Assembly: GCF_048403405.1 (NCBI RefSeq)
Contig: NZ_CP183131.1
Direction: 5' to 3' (one strand)
Source of the DNA: Escherichia coli
GTDB lineage: Bacteria; Pseudomonadota; Gammaproteobacteria; Enterobacterales; Enterobacteriaceae
Length of the DNA stretch: 64,000 nt
Positions within the stretch are counted from its first letter, which is position 1. Every line of letters starts with the position of its first letter. Position numbers: made by a program. This document shows, one piece after another, positions 1 to 6,000 of this stretch.

Positions 1-3000
1 ACCTTTTTTCTTGGCGAGGATGAGCTTCCACTCATCATTGGAGAGTTTGTCTGCGGCCTTCCCGGTGTCCGCAATGCGCCTACGCACCGTTACCGGATCA
101 AGTCCATGTGCTCTGGCTATGCTGGCAACGCAGTTGAACTTCCGACCGTCAATCATGACAGTAGGCAAATCACCAGCGGCAGCCTCCTTGAATCGGAAAC
201 CTCTGTAACCTGGTTTGAAGATCCCAGGAGCAAGTTGCTCACGGAACTCGATTGCTTGTTCTGACCTGACAAACTTGCTGTCGATTTTGCCGAGCATGTA
301 CTTAGCCCGAGCGATTACCTGGTAAAGCGTCTTCTCCAGGAGCATGGCGTCAGCAGCTCGACTCGGAAGACCTATGTCGTCTTCTTGCTCGATACCCAAC
401 ATTTCTGCATGGCTGGAGCCTTCTGCATGTCGGAAACAGCCGTCGTACTCAAAAAGAAAGGAGGCCAAACCTCCTCTCAGCTTTGCTTTGAACCGGGTGT
501 TGGCCGCGTTCTCTGGCGCTGGTGCCAGCTCGGACACTTCAAGCCCTAAATTTGCGGCCAACTTCCGCAGGTCTTCCTCTCCAATTCGGCATCCAGGCTG
601 CATAACCTGCGCCAGAGCAGATTCATCAGCACATCCGCGTTCTTTCAGCTCAGCCAAGAGGTAGGGAACTCGTACTACCCCCATAAGCTCAAGCTCCCTG
701 AATCGCGTGGACCACCAGCTCACAGAGTTTCCCGTACACAGGAGCAAGGCAGAGTGAAGCCATCACCATGCCAAAGGCTTTCGATGGAGCCTCTTTGGCG
801 AACTTGGTCAACCACGGCATCATGCCGCACAGAGCAGCAACCATAGCGCCAGCCACCCCCAGGGAAGGGAATGCCATCACTTGGGCCAGAATGAAGAAAC
901 ACTGGGCGTATGCCGCATGGGTCATCGCCTTCTTATCTGCTGCCGTGAACTCCACGGCATCTACGCTTTTGACTTTTTCCATCACATTGTCCTCATGCAA
1001 CATCAGGTTTTCCGAAAAATTTCTCATACACTTCGAGGTCGAAGGCCAGCATGGTCTTTGCCGCCTTTTCACTAAGCTGGTGGAGGCTAAGCATCTGAAC
1101 CTTGTCAGTGCCGGTCACTTGCAGATCCACCGCGAACCACGTCCCACCTTTGGTCACGGCCAGAACTTGCACCGCCCAGGGCTTATCCAGTCGTTCGGGC
1201 GGAGTGATCATGTTCGACACTTTGGCGACCGTCGCGGTTGAACCTACCCAGTGCTTGTCGAACGCAATGACGTTCAACGCTTCAAACGCATCCTTCGCAG
1301 CTTTAAACCGGCTCCGGACAGCATCTTGTTGCTTCCAAGCCATGAACTGGAGAAGGGTCATTCCACCAGCCATAAGGGTGAGAAAACTCAAGCCATTGGC
1401 GGCAGCTACGACCGTCGCTACCAAGGACCCCAACATGACGAAGCGGTTATGTTTAAGCTGGGCCACTATTCACCTCCTATACCAACCAGCGTACAGGACT
1501 TTTCAAAAATGCAACCCCGCCTAGCTGCCCAATTCGGGCAACCCTGATTCAATCCAGAACTTTCACATGTGAAACTTTCCGCCACAGGAACAGGAGGTTT
1601 TTACCTGACCAGAACGGATGGATTGATAGCGGTGCCACAGCTTGACCACTTCTTTTTCGCTGAGAAGGTTTGTCTTGATGTAACGGACTCTATCCCCGTC
1701 CGCTGTCTCAACAACGGTTCGGACATAGCCGTACTTGGCAACGGGTGCCTTGTACTTGTGTGACAGAATTACCCGGTAAACCGAGAGCTGGATAATGTCC
1801 GACTCATAGATGTGGTTTACCTGGCGCAGCTTGGTGTCCAAGGGAATGAGAACCCCATTCTTGGTTTGGTACACCTGATCAACCCTGCCGTGCATGGGCA
1901 CCGGCTGTGTGGTTGATATGTCCTGTTCGGACAAAAACAGAGTGGCCGAGCGCAGCTCATAAGGCATGTTCTCTGATTTCCACCACGCCCAGGTGTCTCC
2001 AATGCCGCGTTTGCGCCATTGGTCCACTTTCGCAATGACGAAAGGGGCGATGATCAGGACGAATATCCAGAGAACTGGCTTCATGACTACCTCCGGCCCC
2101 TAAACCACTCTGGATGATTGGATACATCCATGCTCTTAACCTGTGATGAGAAGACCAGTAGCTCTTGGGTCGTCAGGACGGTCTCAGGAGCCCGAGCGAT
2201 GAAAGGTCTCAGCAATTCAGAACCCGCATAGATATTGATGACCATATGCAATCGCTCTGTTGCTCCAGAAACTCTCCGCCAGCTCCGGTAGGTTTCTGTT
2301 GATTTGGCATAGCCAACCAAGGCAGGAGCCAGCGTGTCGGACTCCTTCGTATTCAACTTCCCTTTTGCTGCCTTCGATACGAACTCAGCGATCACCGAAG
2401 CCAGCATGTCGGAGGTAAGGTGAAGCGGCAGCTTTATCGTGTCGAAGTCAGCCTGCTTGATGGTGAACAGGCGGATGTGATCGTTGCGGTAGTCACGCAC
2501 ATAGATGACATGACTCTCAAATGGGTTGGAGTGGTTAAAGGCATCCATACCCCAGCCTGCGGCCTCAAGATGTGCGTTTGATACTGACTTGTCGTAATCA
2601 AATTCCACGCTATTACTCTCCGTCTTGTCGTTCAGGAACTTTCACATGTGAAAGTTTTCCGTCGGTCATGATGTCCAGGACGGCTTTGCCCAGTCTCATC
2701 CCTTTATGGTTTTGAACCGGGTCTCCCTTGTAGAAAAGTCCTGGCTCGTTATCGGGATGGAATACCCCGTGAGGAATGTTGTCGTGATCGCCCAGCCACA
2801 TGCGTAGCCTCAGATCCACCAGCCACCCATCATCCAGGACAACCCAGAAATGCGGTGTCACGATGTCCTTGGTCTGTTCGTTTCGCACAAAGCCATACAT
2901 GCAGTCATGAGGTACACCCGCTTCATTGAGTAGGTGGCTTACTGCCCATGTCATACCGTCACATTCCATCTGGCAGTCATCCAAGGTCATAAGGACGGCT

Positions 3001-6000
3001 TCCAGTTCCCGGTGCCACTCCGTCATTTGCTTGGCCGCAGGTTTTACCACCAGCTCGTTTTTGTTTTCTGCCAAGATGATGTCTTCCTCGTCAATATTGC
3101 ATTCGTCTATCGCTTCCGAACGGATGGATACCGCTTCATCCCAGTCATCGCTCGATCCGAAAATGCTCCAACCCTCAAGACCGTAATTCACCCATACGAT
3201 GAACCGCTTTATCGTTTTCATGTGCGGCCCCCTTTAACCGTGCAACGTTCCCACATACTCACCCCTTCAAACCGTAACCCCACCAAAAAGCCACTTCTTG
3301 ATGATTTCCAATCAGCAGCGGCAGGTTGCCCCTGAACTAACCTCACCGAAAAACCACCTTTAGATTGCTTTCTGGTGCTTATCAAGTTCTCCTGAGTGAT
3401 TAGTCGTTCTGAAAACTTTACTTTTCACAGTATCATTTTATAATACTGTAAATCATAAAAACAACCCAGTAAAGAAAAAAGAGCGACTTATGTTGAGACG
3501 AGAAAACCAAGGAGATTTGTTCGATGACCAGGTGGTGTTGCCATCACTGGAGTCGGTTCTTACCGGCATATCTTCCAGTCAGCGTTGTGACGATAGAACA
3601 ACGTACTTCTCCGCTCCGGATGTGGACCTGAGTTTGTACGATCACATCATTGTTTGCCTGTCTGGAGGCAAAGACTCGATTGCTGCGTACTTGCGGCTGG
3701 TGGACATGGGTGTTGATAAGTCAAAGGTGGAGTTCTGGCACCATGATGTTGATGGTCAGGAAGGCAGTTCGTTGATGGATTGGGCCTTCATGCGTGATTA
3801 CTGTCGTCAGCTCGGGGAAGAACTGGGTATCCCAATGTACTTCTCGTGGCTTGAGGGCGGCTTTGAGGGCAAAATGCTCAAAGACAATGCCTATAGCCAC
3901 CCCCATCGTGTAGAGACGCCTGAGGGGCTTCTGGTGCTGCCTAGAGACCATAAGCGCTCTAAGCCTGGTACGCGCCTTCGTTTCCCTCAGCAATCGCCAT
4001 CACTCCAAACAAGGTGGTGCTCATCAGCCTTGAAGATCGATGTTGGCCGCAGAGCTCTTAATAACCAGGAGCGCTTCAAGGGGAAGAAGATCCTTTTCAT
4101 CACTGGTGAGCGCCGGGAGGAAAGTGCAAACAGATCCAAGTACAACCAGCTTGAGGCTCATGCCTGTGACAGAAGATATGGGAAGACTGCACGGTTAGTT
4201 GATGCCTGGAGGCCCGTTCTTCATTGGACTGAGGAGGAGGTATGGGAAGTAATCGAGCGTCACCGCATCCTGGCCCCAGTCCCTTATCGCCTTGGCTGGA
4301 GCCGGTCGTCGTGTATGACCTGCATCTACAACTCACAGCGTATCTGGTCCACGATCCGTCACTACTGGCCTGAACGAGCTGGGAAAATTGCTCAGTATGA
4401 ACAAACCTTTGGTGTGACGGTATCAAGAAAAAAAATCGACGTAATAGATTTAGGTTCTGCTGTTGCGCCGATACAGATTAGTGATGTTGAGGCATTGGAG
4501 CAGGTATCCAGAGAAGATTACACGCTCCCGATTTTTGTGCCGGAGGGGCAGAAGTGGGTTCTCCCTGGTGGCGCATTTGGCCGAGAGGCCTGTGGTTCTG
4601 ATTGATTTGTGCAGAGGTGGCAATGTTGGATTTTGTTTTTTTGGTGTTTTTGGGGTTGGGCATATCTACGGTGCTGGTGCGTCGGTCTTCCCGTAAGGGG
4701 ATGGATCTTGAGCTGACATGGCTCCAGTCGTTGAAGGTCGTGCTGGTTCGTGGAGCTGTTGCATTGGGCCTGGGTTTTGGCATTGGCAGGCTTGTATTGA
4801 TGGGGATGCAGTATGGTTTCCTGAGTGAGTCTGTCCTGAGGGAACATGCACTTGTCTCCGTAGCGGTGGTTCTGATCTGTGGGCTTGGTTCGTTCGTTGC
4901 GTTTCAGTGGATCATCGGGAGGATCTCTGGAAGATCGATCAGCGTCGTTTCTGTGATCAAAGCTGTGATGTACGAGTCTGGTTACTTTGTGCTGTCGATG
5001 CTTATCTTGTTGGTGATACTCGTCCTGTTCGGCCTTGCATACGAGACTTTTTTCTAAAAAAACAGTGTTGATTATTTTTTGTTCAGTGATCAAAAGGATA
5101 AATATAAAGATCTTTAGATCTTTGTATAAAGGATTAAAAACGGTTAAAGACAGGTTAGGCGTTCTAAATCACCACTCAACACATTGATATTACTGGTGTT
5201 TTCATATTTATTCCGTGCAACAAACCCATAGGTTGCCGTGCAGCGTTCCCATAGGTTGCCGTGCAACGTCCCCACATACCCTTGGATCTTATCCACTGTT
5301 ATCCACACGGAACCCCTCTTTTTTCCACAAAATCCTTACAAAACAGAGCTTTCGTGCAGCGTTCCCACATATCAGATCTGGTGTTCGTGCAGTATTCCCA
5401 CATGTCTAAGGTCATACGTGCAGTCGCCCCATATACAATTTTCTGAACGTGCAACGTACCCACATGTCAATTTTGGTCGTTTTTTGCACCGTGCAGCGTA
5501 CCCACATATGATCGTGCAGCGTTCCCATATACCAAAACCCCGTTTATGCACAGGAAATGTGGATAACTTTTGGCCTCTTTTTGTGTGCGCGTGATCACTT
5601 TATGGACTATTAGAGTCATTTTGACTGCTTTTTTAGGTTTGTCCTGATCTGTCAATCTTTGTTCTGCTTCGTCAATCGTGCAGAGTTCCCATATATCGAG
5701 AGGTTCAGGACCTGCTTTCGTGCAACGTACCCACATATCAAATCTCATAACGTGCAGGTCCCCCACATCCTCACCCTTTAACTATCAATACCTTACGGGA
5801 ACCACTCTACGGGAACCACTGGAGCAGCATGGCACTTATCCTTCGTCGTGGCTTACGCTTGCACGATACTGAGACTCAGCTTGCGACTACCGTGCAGCGA
5901 TCCCATATATAGAGCCCCAGCCCACGCTGCATCTGGGGTCACGTTCGCTCTATCCGTGCAGCTCCCCCATATGCGGAGGCATTCCGTTTCCGGTCCTGCC

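What the first reader, a model, noticed from the sequence alone, without database searches (positions are those of the whole stretch)
1..5057. Second PP-loop protein in a divergent cluster of unknown membrane and soluble proteins next to oriV
A 371-aa PAPS-reductase-like protein (SGGKDS) is co-transcribed with a polytopic membrane protein and faces a divergent operon of five unknown genes, two of them preceded by the TTTCACATGTGAAA palindrome. Two unrelated PP-loop proteins on one element is unusual. The divergent promoter region (3222-3489) contains the inverted repeat ACAGTA-N11-TACTGT.
Basis: partly seen in the sequence, partly recalled or inferred. Interest (0 to 1): 0.55.

Follow-up and report, generated by a model that had tools for sequence, protein, structure and literature searches.

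The report
Orphan PP-loop enzyme on IncC plasmid
Next to the replication origin of the IncC drug-resistance plasmid sits an uncharacterised ATP-using, probably iron-sulfur enzyme that travels on its own among plasmids, ICEs and phages and most likely modifies nucleic acid to help the element establish itself; the repeats and neighbouring genes flagged with it are known or unrelated backbone features.

Summary
The window is the IncC (A/C2) plasmid backbone. The ORFs are real. The 371-aa protein (3490-4605) has an intact SGGKDS PP-loop and a confident PAPS-reductase-like fold.

- TTTCACATGTGAAA is the published IncC parS centromere core.
- The "five-gene operon" is split by the published AcaCD-dependent vcrx012 promoter.
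- The ACAGTA-N11-TACTGT repeat is at chance level, and its left arm is not conserved.
- The membrane protein belongs with the divergent backbone genes. Three related replicons carry it beside them with no PP-loop gene.

The PP-loop gene is free-standing cargo. It occurs in about 1470 plasmids, about 420 of them outside A/C. It fails the tests for CysH, DndC, SspD and BrxP. Three cysteines are invariant, and the CxxC pair aligns with the Fe-S CxxC of APS reductase. The domain is also fused to inorganic pyrophosphatase, Mom, C5-methylase, ParB, MuF and portal modules in polyvalent proteins.

The "second" PP-loop protein is an 817-aa DndC-like orphan. Distant homologues of it sit beside homologues of the 371-aa gene in other elements.

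Best reading: an adenylating, probably thiolating, nucleic-acid-modifying establishment or anti-defence enzyme. Substrate and phenotype are untested.

The parts
3490..4605 (+). 371-aa PAPS-reductase-like PP-loop ATP pyrophosphatase. By position counting from the published R55 numbering this is R55_5. SGGKDS is at aa 58-63. C177, C275 and C278 are invariant.
4623..5057 (+). 144-aa protein with about four transmembrane segments. It starts 17 nt downstream of the PP-loop gene. It is a backbone gene, not a conserved partner of the PP-loop enzyme.
3417..3444 (+). Best sigma-70-like promoter of the region: TTTACT-16-TATAAT, 10 of 12 matches. It is placed to drive the PP-loop and membrane genes. TATAAT and the flanking ACTGTAA are invariant in four relatives.
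3427..3449 (.). Inverted repeat ACAGTA-N11-TACTGT (7-nt arms ACAGTAT/ATACTGT with a 9-nt spacer) straddling the -10 box. It may be an operator, but it is at chance level and the left arm is not conserved.
3239..3256 (+). Outlying perfect copy of the oriV iteron (CGTGCAACGTTCCCACAT), 18 nt upstream of the start codon of the TGase-like gene.
2613..3221 (-). 202-aa protein (R55_6). It has an N-terminal alpha/beta domain and a C-terminal transglutaminase/papain-like Cys-His-Asp domain (C87, H124, D136 invariant).
2640..2653 (.). IncC parS core embedded in the 3' end of the TGase-like gene, where it encodes LSHVK.
2087..2608 (-). 173-aa soluble protein (R55_7) with no detectable family. Homologues are in pAsa4b, the Edwardsiella plasmid and the Marinobacterium replicon.
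1563..2084 (-). 173-aa protein (R55_08) with an N-terminal transmembrane helix and a RecB/Cas4-like PD-(D/E)xK nuclease domain (D68, D83-x-K85, Q99xxxY103).
1561..1574 (.). IncC parS core overlapping the stop codon of R55_08. It lies 20 nt from the AcaCD-box-like palindrome.
1526..1540 (.). Palindrome TGCCCGAATTGGGCA, the candidate AcaCD box of the published AcaCD-dependent vcrx012 promoter.
   Evidence: Papers read.
993..1466 (-). 157-aa protein with an N-terminal hydrophobic segment (R55_9/vcrx012). It is the first gene of an AcaCD-activated operon that continues leftwards to the S49 peptidase and DsbA genes.
689..982 (-). 97-aa small membrane protein, second gene of the vcrx012 operon.
5213..5972 (+). 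oriV iteron array: 13 copies of a 19-nt repeat.
57871..60324 (-). The other PP-loop protein: an 817-aa orphan DndC-like protein (SSGKDS). It is 53 kb away in IncC. Distant homologues (24-27% identity) lie adjacent to homologues of the 371-aa gene in other elements.

Best explanation
Shown:
- The 371-aa protein belongs to a clade of the PAPS-reductase/DndC (PP-loop ATP pyrophosphatase) superfamily that is found on mobile elements.
- It has an intact ATP-binding PP-loop.
- It moves as a single-gene cargo module among plasmids, ICEs and phages.
- The same domain is built into polyvalent proteins that carry virion (MuF, portal) modules.

Inferred:
- Three invariant cysteines bind a [4Fe-4S] cluster.
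- The enzyme adenylates an oxygen on its substrate, releasing pyrophosphate, and then replaces it, most probably with sulfur.
- The substrate is nucleic acid, most probably the element's own DNA.
- The biological role is establishment or anti-defence in a new host.

In IncC the gene sits between a constitutive-looking promoter and a backbone membrane-protein gene, and is probably co-transcribed with that gene by accident of position.

The rest of the flagged region is conserved backbone of MOBH-type conjugative elements. It holds a transglutaminase-like Cys-His-Asp enzyme, an unknown 173-aa protein and a membrane-anchored RecB/Cas4-like nuclease. Then comes the AcaCD-activated vcrx012 operon. 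Two ParB-binding parS sites and one stray RepA iteron are interspersed.
For: Identity of the window: IncC backbone, with 1017 plasmids covering at least 80% of positions 1-7200.

Fold and motifs:
- Pfam PAPS_reduct 1.3e-7 and phrog_424 5e-34.
- AF2 model with pLDDT 92.4.
- S58, G60, D62, C177, C275 and C278 are invariant across 65 sequences down to 33% identity.
- The profile alignment to 2goy ends at chain residue 231, where the cluster CxxC lies by my recollection of that structure.

Pyrophosphate-releasing chemistry and delivery at entry:
- Fusions to InPase (4 of 20 multidomain relatives, best E 9e-48).
- Fusions to Portal_Mu, MuF/DarB-like, Mom, ART-PolyVal, ParB-C and C5-methylase modules.

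Independence from the local cluster:
-.

Recurrent neighbours:
- A cytosine-5 methylase-like family in 10 of 57 loci.
- N6 methylases, DUF4942 and DndB-like genes.
- DndC-like genes in 5 loci, immediately downstream in 3 of them.
- SSB, H-NS and UmuC establishment-type arrays, and phage replication or nucleotide-metabolism genes.

Backbone parts:
- parS and the AcaCD promoter come from the papers read.
- TGase-like fold.
- Nuclease motifs.
Against: - No substrate, modification or phenotype is known for any close relative. The literature search found none for IncC.
- The Fe-S cluster is inferred from three cysteines and a weak sequence alignment (E 0.5). I could not inspect the model coordinates.
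- Fusion partners and neighbours favour DNA, but they do not exclude tRNA or a small nucleotide as substrate.
- The nic site and the direction of transfer of IncA/C plasmids are undetermined. The gene therefore cannot be placed in the leading region. It lies on the mobI side of oriT, which in many plasmids enters last.
- The neighbour associations are individually minor: 10 of 57 loci and 5 of 57 loci. The Pseudomonas loci are related to each other.
Confidence: 0.42

Rival explanations
1. The enzyme modifies host or plasmid RNA (for example tRNA thiolation or lysidine-like chemistry), or it adenylates or destroys a small nucleotide such as an immune signal or precursor. It does not modify DNA.
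For: - Structural neighbours include the tRNA-modifying PP-loop enzymes TtuA, TilS, NcsA, ThiI and MnmA, and also Cap9 and QueC.
- The polyvalent-protein paper suggested that InPase domains may process nucleotide-like substrates.
- In phages the gene lies among nucleotide-metabolism genes such as thymidylate synthase.
Against: - The fusion partners that point to a substrate act on or bind DNA: Mom, C5-methylase and ParB.
- Recurrent neighbours are DNA methylases and DndC- or DndB-like genes.
- No RNA-binding domain such as THUMP or PUA was detected.
Confidence: 0.2
2. The 371-aa enzyme and the DndC-like orphan together form a minimal, element-borne DNA sulfur-modification pathway. Phosphorothioate mimicry is one possibility. 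The pathway would draw sulfur from host IscS.
For: - Both genes are on IncC.
- DndC-like genes of 590-670 aa lie immediately downstream on the same strand in L038, L040 and L041, and within 1.8-2.5 kb in L045 and L029.
- Both proteins match DndC models.
- A 2026 preprint states that a phage PAPS reductase promotes evasion of Dnd. I could not retrieve the cited source.
Against: - Only 5 of 57 loci show the pairing, and three of those are related Pseudomonas ICEs.
- The two genes are 53 kb apart in IncC.
- Most carriers of the 371-aa family have no DndC-like gene within 10 kb.
- No DndD, DndE or SspB/SspC analogue was seen.
Confidence: 0.15
3. One reading: the PP-loop enzyme, the membrane protein and the divergent genes form one functional system.
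For: - The whole arrangement is kept in IncC, IncA-like, Photorhabdus and pAsa4b plasmids.
- The PP-loop and membrane genes are 17 nt apart.
- One betaproteobacterial element has the TGase-like and nuclease genes 6 kb from the PP-loop gene.
Against: - The PP-loop gene is unlinked to the other genes in all other loci.
- The membrane, TGase-like and nuclease genes occur without it in three lineages.
- The membrane protein is in 1097 plasmids, almost all of them A/C. The PP-loop family is in 1471, including about 420 non-A/C.
Confidence: 0.07
4. It is a true sulfonucleotide (PAPS or APS) reductase, an auxiliary sulfur-assimilation gene as the database name suggests.
For: - The PGAP name and the Pfam PAPS_reduct hit.
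- The best structural match is APS reductase.
- The proteobacterial subclade ends in E(G/A)CG on a flexible tail, which resembles the CysH ECG(L/I)H motif.
Against: - The canonical SGGKDS PP-loop is invariant. By my knowledge of the family, CysH-type reductases have a degenerate one.
- The C-terminal cysteine is absent from the wider family.
- InPase fusions make sense only for a reaction that releases pyrophosphate.
- NCBIfam CysH and APS-reductase scores are 14-28 bits against cut-offs of 154-254.
- The gene is never in a cys context in the loci examined.
Confidence: 0.06

Closest known systems
DndC / SspD / BrxP (PP-loop, Fe-S sulfur-transfer components of DNA phosphorothioation systems)
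   Same: Same superfamily. It shares the PP-loop, the RWCS...K and GER.EES..R motifs and the CxxC. PADLOC hits are BrxP 9e-14, SspD 3e-9 and DndC 6e-9. It is carried by elements engaged in defence and counter-defence conflicts.
   Different: - Only aa 169-297 align.
- TIGR03183 scores 36.8 bits against a cut-off of 290.4.
- No DndA, DndD, DndE, SspB, SspC or BREX genes are linked.
- It is much shorter than BrxP and has its own N- and C-terminal extensions.
- It is a stand-alone gene.
Assimilatory APS reductase (PDB 2goy) and PAPS reductase CysH
   Different: - 11-16% identity.
- The PP-loop is intact.
- The catalytic ECG(L/I)H tail is not conserved across the family.
- About 150 extra residues.
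- Mobile-element context rather than a cys operon.
[4Fe-4S] tRNA thiolases TtuA, NcsA and TtcA
   Different: No zinc-finger or RNA-binding modules were detected. The cysteines are placed as in APS reductase, not as in TtuA. The substrate is unknown.
Phage 'PAPS reductases' (PHROG 424) and PDB 21fy chain C 'PptA'
   Same: PHROG 424 is the best family match at 5e-34. PptA is the only solved structure with detectable sequence similarity, in the CxxC region, at E 4e-4 with the family profile.
   Different: PHROG 424 has no tested function, and the papers I read treat it as an auxiliary metabolic gene or a suspected anti-defence gene. I found nothing about what PptA does.
IncC parS/ParB system and AcaCD regulon (published)
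   Same: The palindromes at 1561 and 2640 are the 14-bp parS core with AAA(C/G) and GTTC flanks. They lie in R55_08 and R55_6, as the paper lists. The vcrx012 promoter has parS next to the AcaCD box, as described.
   Different: Nothing differs. This part of the finding is already known.

Membership tests
PP-loop ATP pyrophosphatase superfamily | SGGxDS/T PP-motif in a Rossmann-like alpha/beta fold | tested here: met
PAPS reductase (CysH) | Family HMM above the curated cut-off | tested here: not met
   NF002537 26.1 bits against 154. TIGR00434 19.2 against 165. TIGR02057 14.5 against 254.
PAPS reductase (CysH) | C-terminal catalytic cysteine in the ECG(L/I)H motif | tested here: not met
   E(G/A)CG is present only in the proteobacterial subclade (C368 at 90% or more in A1). 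It is absent from the wider family, whose consensus ends in GGPT or GP.
APS reductase | [4Fe-4S] cluster ligated by CC...CxxC | tested here: inconclusive
   C177, C275 and C278 are invariant, which is three of the four positions. The alignment to 2goy ends at the CxxC region but is weak (E 0.5). No metal analysis is possible with these tools.
DndC | TIGR03183 above cut-off and linkage to dndA/D/E | tested here: not met
   36.8 bits against 290.4. No dnd genes were seen in the window or in the homologous loci.
BrxP / SspD | Full-length match, with DUF4007/SspB and BrxC/SspC partners | tested here: not met
   Partial hits only, covering aa 169-307. No partner genes are nearby.
Polyvalent-protein domain repertoire of phages and conjugative elements | The domain is found fused in large multidomain proteins with virion or transfer-associated modules | tested here: met
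   Proteins of 1660-1841 aa combine MuF/DarB-like plus Mom, Portal_Mu or ParB-C modules with this domain at their C-terminus. ART-PolyVal and InPase fusions also occur. The 2017 catalogue paper does not mention PAPS or PP-loop domains.
IncC parS | 14-bp core TTTCACATGTGAAA with AAAC/GTTT-type flanks, multiple copies per backbone | tested here: met
   Five exact copies in the window. The flanks are AAAC...GTTC and AAAG...GTTC. The paper lists copies in R55_6 and R55_08. ParB binding to these two copies was not tested here.
Transglutaminase-like / papain-like Cys-His-Asp enzymes (for the 202-aa protein) | Cys-His-Asp triad on the transglutaminase core fold | tested here: met
RecB/Cas4-family PD-(D/E)xK nuclease (for the 173-aa protein at 1563-2084) | Motifs D, (D/E)xK and QxxxY; for Cas4 proper, also a four-cysteine cluster | tested here: inconclusive
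   D68, D83-x-K85 and Q99xxxY103 can be read in the sequence. PADLOC Cas4 models give 1e-6 to 8e-4, and TIGR00372 gives 20 bits against 65. Only two cysteines are present, so it is not Cas4 proper. PGAP names the Edwardsiella homologue a PD-(D/E)XK nuclease.

The most novel reading that the evidence does not exclude
The 371-aa enzyme is a self-sufficient [4Fe-4S] PP-loop DNA thiolase, working alone or with the DndC-like orphan. It would install a sulfur-containing mark on incoming plasmid or phage DNA. Such a single-gene or two-gene epigenetic camouflage system would be unlike the multi-protein Dnd and Ssp machineries. It would explain why the domain is packaged into virions within polyvalent proteins and fused to a pyrophosphatase.
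Probability: 0.2. Interest if true: 0.78.

Novelty: new variant of a known kind. Interest (0 to 1): 0.45.

Why it matters
IncC plasmids are major carriers of carbapenemase and other multidrug-resistance genes. Homologues of this enzyme also sit on about 150 Acinetobacter plasmids and on many other plasmids, ICEs and phages.

Phage "PAPS reductases" are routinely scored as sulfur-metabolism auxiliary genes. The intact PP-loop, the pyrophosphatase fusions and the polyvalent-protein context argue that this label is wrong for this clade. They point to an establishment or anti-defence enzyme.

If a sulfur or other adenylation-dependent nucleic-acid mark is found, that would add a new minimal modification route. 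It would also give a target for limiting plasmid spread.

The clean-up of the neighbourhood shows which features need no further explanation: the parS sites, the AcaCD promoter, the stray iteron and the backbone membrane/TGase-like/nuclease genes.

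Tried and rejected
- **Literature.** I searched for any study of this gene on IncC/IncA/C plasmids and found nothing. Three searches for "PptA", the only solved sequence relative, found nothing. The reference behind "a phage PAPS reductase promotes Dnd evasion" could not be retrieved.
- **Domain searches.** Pfam, NCBIfam, PHROGs and PADLOC found nothing for the membrane protein, the 173-aa protein at 2087-2608, the 157-aa protein or the 97-aa protein.
- **Other tools.** Rfam found nothing in 1-8600. The PDB sequence search with two short, distant viral relatives found nothing. The model coordinates are not exposed, so I could not measure distances between the cysteines.
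- **LexA box.** Rejected for the inverted repeat. The half-sites are in the opposite order to the CTGT-N8-ACAG consensus (sequence reading plus my knowledge of that consensus).
- **Leading-region gene.** Rejected as a claim. The nic site and the direction of transfer are undetermined.
- **Palindrome as a promoter operator of unknown genes.** Rejected. It is parS.

Full report
**What the window is.**
Positions 1-7200 are 100% identical to many IncC (A/C2) plasmids. 1017 plasmid records cover at least 80% of this stretch. One matching record is typed IncC / MOBH / MPF_F. The window runs antiparallel to the usual map. repA is at 6094-7194(-) and mobI at 7471-8010(-). The 13-copy iteron array of oriV lies at 5213-5972. 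In the published R55 numbering, R55_1 is mobI and R55_3 is repA. By position counting, the membrane gene is then R55_4 and the PP-loop gene R55_5. The minus-strand genes are R55_6, R55_7, R55_08 and R55_9.

**Checking the observation.**
All the ORFs exist as described. The PP-loop motif SGGKDS is real and occurs only once in this form in the window. The downstream ORF starts at ATG 4623, 17 nt after the stop, with a good Shine-Dalgarno sequence, and has about four hydrophobic segments.

The palindrome TTTCACATGTGAAA occurs five times exactly in the window, against 0.37 expected. A 2024 paper identifies this 14-mer as the conserved core of the IncC parS centromere. That paper shows ParB binding for representative sites and lists copies inside R55_6 and R55_08. 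The two copies in the flagged region are therefore known partition sites. They lie inside the 3' ends of the upstream ORFs.

The same paper and a 2021 paper state that R55_9/vcrx012 heads an AcaCD-activated operon whose promoter has parS next to the AcaCD box. I find the palindrome TGCCCGAATTGGGCA at 1526-1540, 20 nt from parS. The "operon of five" is therefore a three-gene unit followed by a separately regulated conjugation-linked operon. That operon continues beyond the window start to the S49 peptidase and DsbA genes.

The inverted repeat ACAGTA-N11-TACTGT is exact at 3427-3449. It straddles the -10 box of the best promoter-like site, TTTACT-16-TATAAT at 3417-3444. However, 68% of composition-matched simulations contain at least one such 6-nt repeat. 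In three relatives the left arm carries a mismatch, while TATAAT and the right arm are invariant. What is conserved is the promoter. Operator function is unproven.

**The PP-loop protein.**
- It matches Pfam PAPS_reduct only weakly (1.3e-7).
- It matches PHROG 424, the phage "PAPS reductase" family, well (5e-34).
- It matches BrxP, SspD and DndC models only over aa 169-297.
- It falls far below every curated NCBIfam cut-off.

The family is large. There are 1646 representatives at 50% clustering with E up to 1e-3, and 331 with E up to 1e-30. Orthologues of 60-70% identity occur across Gamma-, Beta- and Alphaproteobacteria.

Across 65 sequences down to 33% identity, the invariant residues are the PP-loop (S58, G60, D62), three cysteines (C177, C275, C278) and several Arg, Lys and Glu residues. 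The CxxC pair aligns with the end of the 2goy match at chain residue 231. That is where the cluster-binding CxxC lies, by my recollection of that structure. A [4Fe-4S] cluster is therefore likely but not shown.

The CysH-like C-terminal cysteine is present only in the proteobacterial subclade.

**What travels with it.**
I recovered 18 viral and 42 genomic loci. None of the other flagged genes is linked to the PP-loop gene outside the IncA/C-Photorhabdus-pAsa4 lineage. The one exception is a betaproteobacterial element in which the TGase-like and nuclease genes lie 6 kb away.

The membrane gene behaves in the opposite way. It lies next to the TGase-like and nuclease genes without any PP-loop gene in three places:
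- an Edwardsiella IncC-like plasmid;
- Vibrio MOBH plasmids;
- a Marinobacterium Rep3 replicon.

Its plasmid distribution is 1097 records, nearly all A/C. That is much narrower than the PP-loop family, which is in 1471 records, about 420 of them non-A/C, including 152 from Acinetobacter. In the A/C lineage the PP-loop gene therefore sits between the divergent promoter and a backbone membrane gene. Whether it was inserted there or lost from the relatives was not resolved. Co-transcription reflects position, not partnership.

Recurrent neighbours of the PP-loop gene elsewhere are:
- a cytosine-5 DNA methylase-like family (10 of 57 loci);
- N6 methylases;
- DUF4942;
- DndB-like genes;
- KlcB and SSB/H-NS/UmuC-type establishment arrays;
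- in phages, replication and nucleotide-metabolism genes.

**Fusions.**
In multidomain relatives the domain sits at the C-terminus. The partners are:
- a polyvalent-protein type inorganic pyrophosphatase (4 of 20 relatives, best E 9e-48);
- a Mu-type portal;
- MuF/DarB-like plus Mom;
- ART-PolyVal;
- a ParB C-terminal domain;
- a C5-methylase fragment;
- AAA and GHKL ATPases.

A fused pyrophosphatase fits an enzyme that releases pyrophosphate, that is, one that adenylates its substrate. It does not fit a sulfonucleotide reductase. Fusion to virion-targeting modules implies action at the moment of entry. The 2017 catalogue of polyvalent-protein domains does not mention this domain.

**The second PP-loop protein.**
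The 817-aa ORF at 57871-60324(-) matches DndC models at about 1e-35 to 1e-41, below the curated cut-off, and has no Pfam hit. Distant homologues of it (24-27% identity, 590-670 aa) lie immediately downstream of the 371-aa homologue in three Pseudomonas/Stutzerimonas ICE loci. They lie within 1.8-2.5 kb in Limnobacter and Natronospirillum loci. The pair is recurrent, which raises the possibility of a two-enzyme pathway. The association is a minority one.

**The divergent genes.**
- The 173-aa protein at 1563-2084 has an N-terminal transmembrane helix and RecB/Cas4-type nuclease motifs.
- The 173-aa protein at 2087-2608 remains unassigned.

These genes, the membrane protein and the vcrx012 block co-occur next to mobI in MOBH elements.

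**Mechanism and confidence.**
Shown:
- the fold, the intact PP-loop and the invariant cysteines;
- mobility as a single gene;
- the polyvalent-protein fusions;
- independence from the local cluster.

Inferred:
- Fe-S binding;
- adenylation followed by sulfur insertion;
- DNA as the target;
- an establishment or anti-defence role.

The direction of IncA/C transfer is unknown, so I do not claim a leading-region location. No experiment on this family was found. A 2026 preprint cites unnamed work in which a phage PAPS reductase aids evasion of Dnd.

**Verdict.**
The gene is real and uncharacterised, and it is more interesting as a widespread stand-alone clade than as part of a local cluster. The repeats and the operon structure flagged with it are already explained.

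Noticed in passing
window 3239-3256(+), 4176-4193(-), 8333-8350(+): Outlying copies of the oriV iteron (consensus CGTGCARCGTNCCCAYAT). A perfect copy lies 18 nt upstream of the TGase-like gene start. An inverted copy with 2 mismatches lies inside the PP-loop gene. A copy with 1 mismatch lies near oriT and the stbA promoter. None is expected by chance. The PP-loop and membrane genes therefore lie between RepA-binding sites, which suggests RepA handcuffing or regulation of the divergent operon.
   Followed up: partly
window 2640-2653; L067 6371-6384; L069 6455-6468; L006 8076-8089: The parS core inside the TGase-like gene encodes the conserved peptide LSHVK(V)P. The DNA 14-mer sits at the same place in Vibrio, Marinobacterium and pAsa4b homologues that are only about 50-68% identical as proteins. 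A centromere site and a coding motif appear to constrain each other.
   Followed up: partly
window 57871-60324(-) and 56789-57394(-): The 817-aa orphan DndC-like protein has no Pfam hit, and its C-terminal ~350 aa are unassigned. It is followed by a YfbR-like 5'-deoxynucleotidase (128.5 bits, above the 122 cut-off). This could be another nucleic-acid or nucleotide-modifying module of the IncC backbone.
   Followed up: partly
proteins P0130, P0142, P0169, P0205, P0269, P0247, P0193 and P0216, P0227, P0241: Fusions of the polyvalent-type inorganic pyrophosphatase (PF18823) to this PP-loop domain give a concrete rationale for that InPase family: removing the pyrophosphate product. The 2017 polyvalent-protein paper left the role open and does not mention PP-loop partners.
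   Followed up: partly
window ~3356-3372 (alignment A5 columns 137-150): The block TTTAGATTG.TTT in the divergent spacer is invariant in IncC, the Photorhabdus plasmid, the Providencia plasmid and even pAsa4b, although the DNA around it has diverged. It is an unassigned regulatory element, possibly the promoter or operator of the TGase-like operon.
   Followed up: no
L038, L039, L040, L029, L030: In Pseudomonas, Stutzerimonas, Natronospirillum and Methylobacter loci the PP-loop gene lies a few kb from a PRTRC cassette (PRTRC ThiF-family, protein B and ParB-family genes). UmuC is also nearby in L040.
   Followed up: no
window 8396-8410: A second AcaCD-box-like palindrome (TGCCCCTTTTGGGCA) lies in the mobI-stbA intergenic (oriT) region, next to the iteron copy at 8333.
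   Followed up: no
window 45557-49819(-): A 1420-aa Rhs/YD-repeat protein is on the plasmid backbone (RHS core and YD-repeat models).
   Followed up: no
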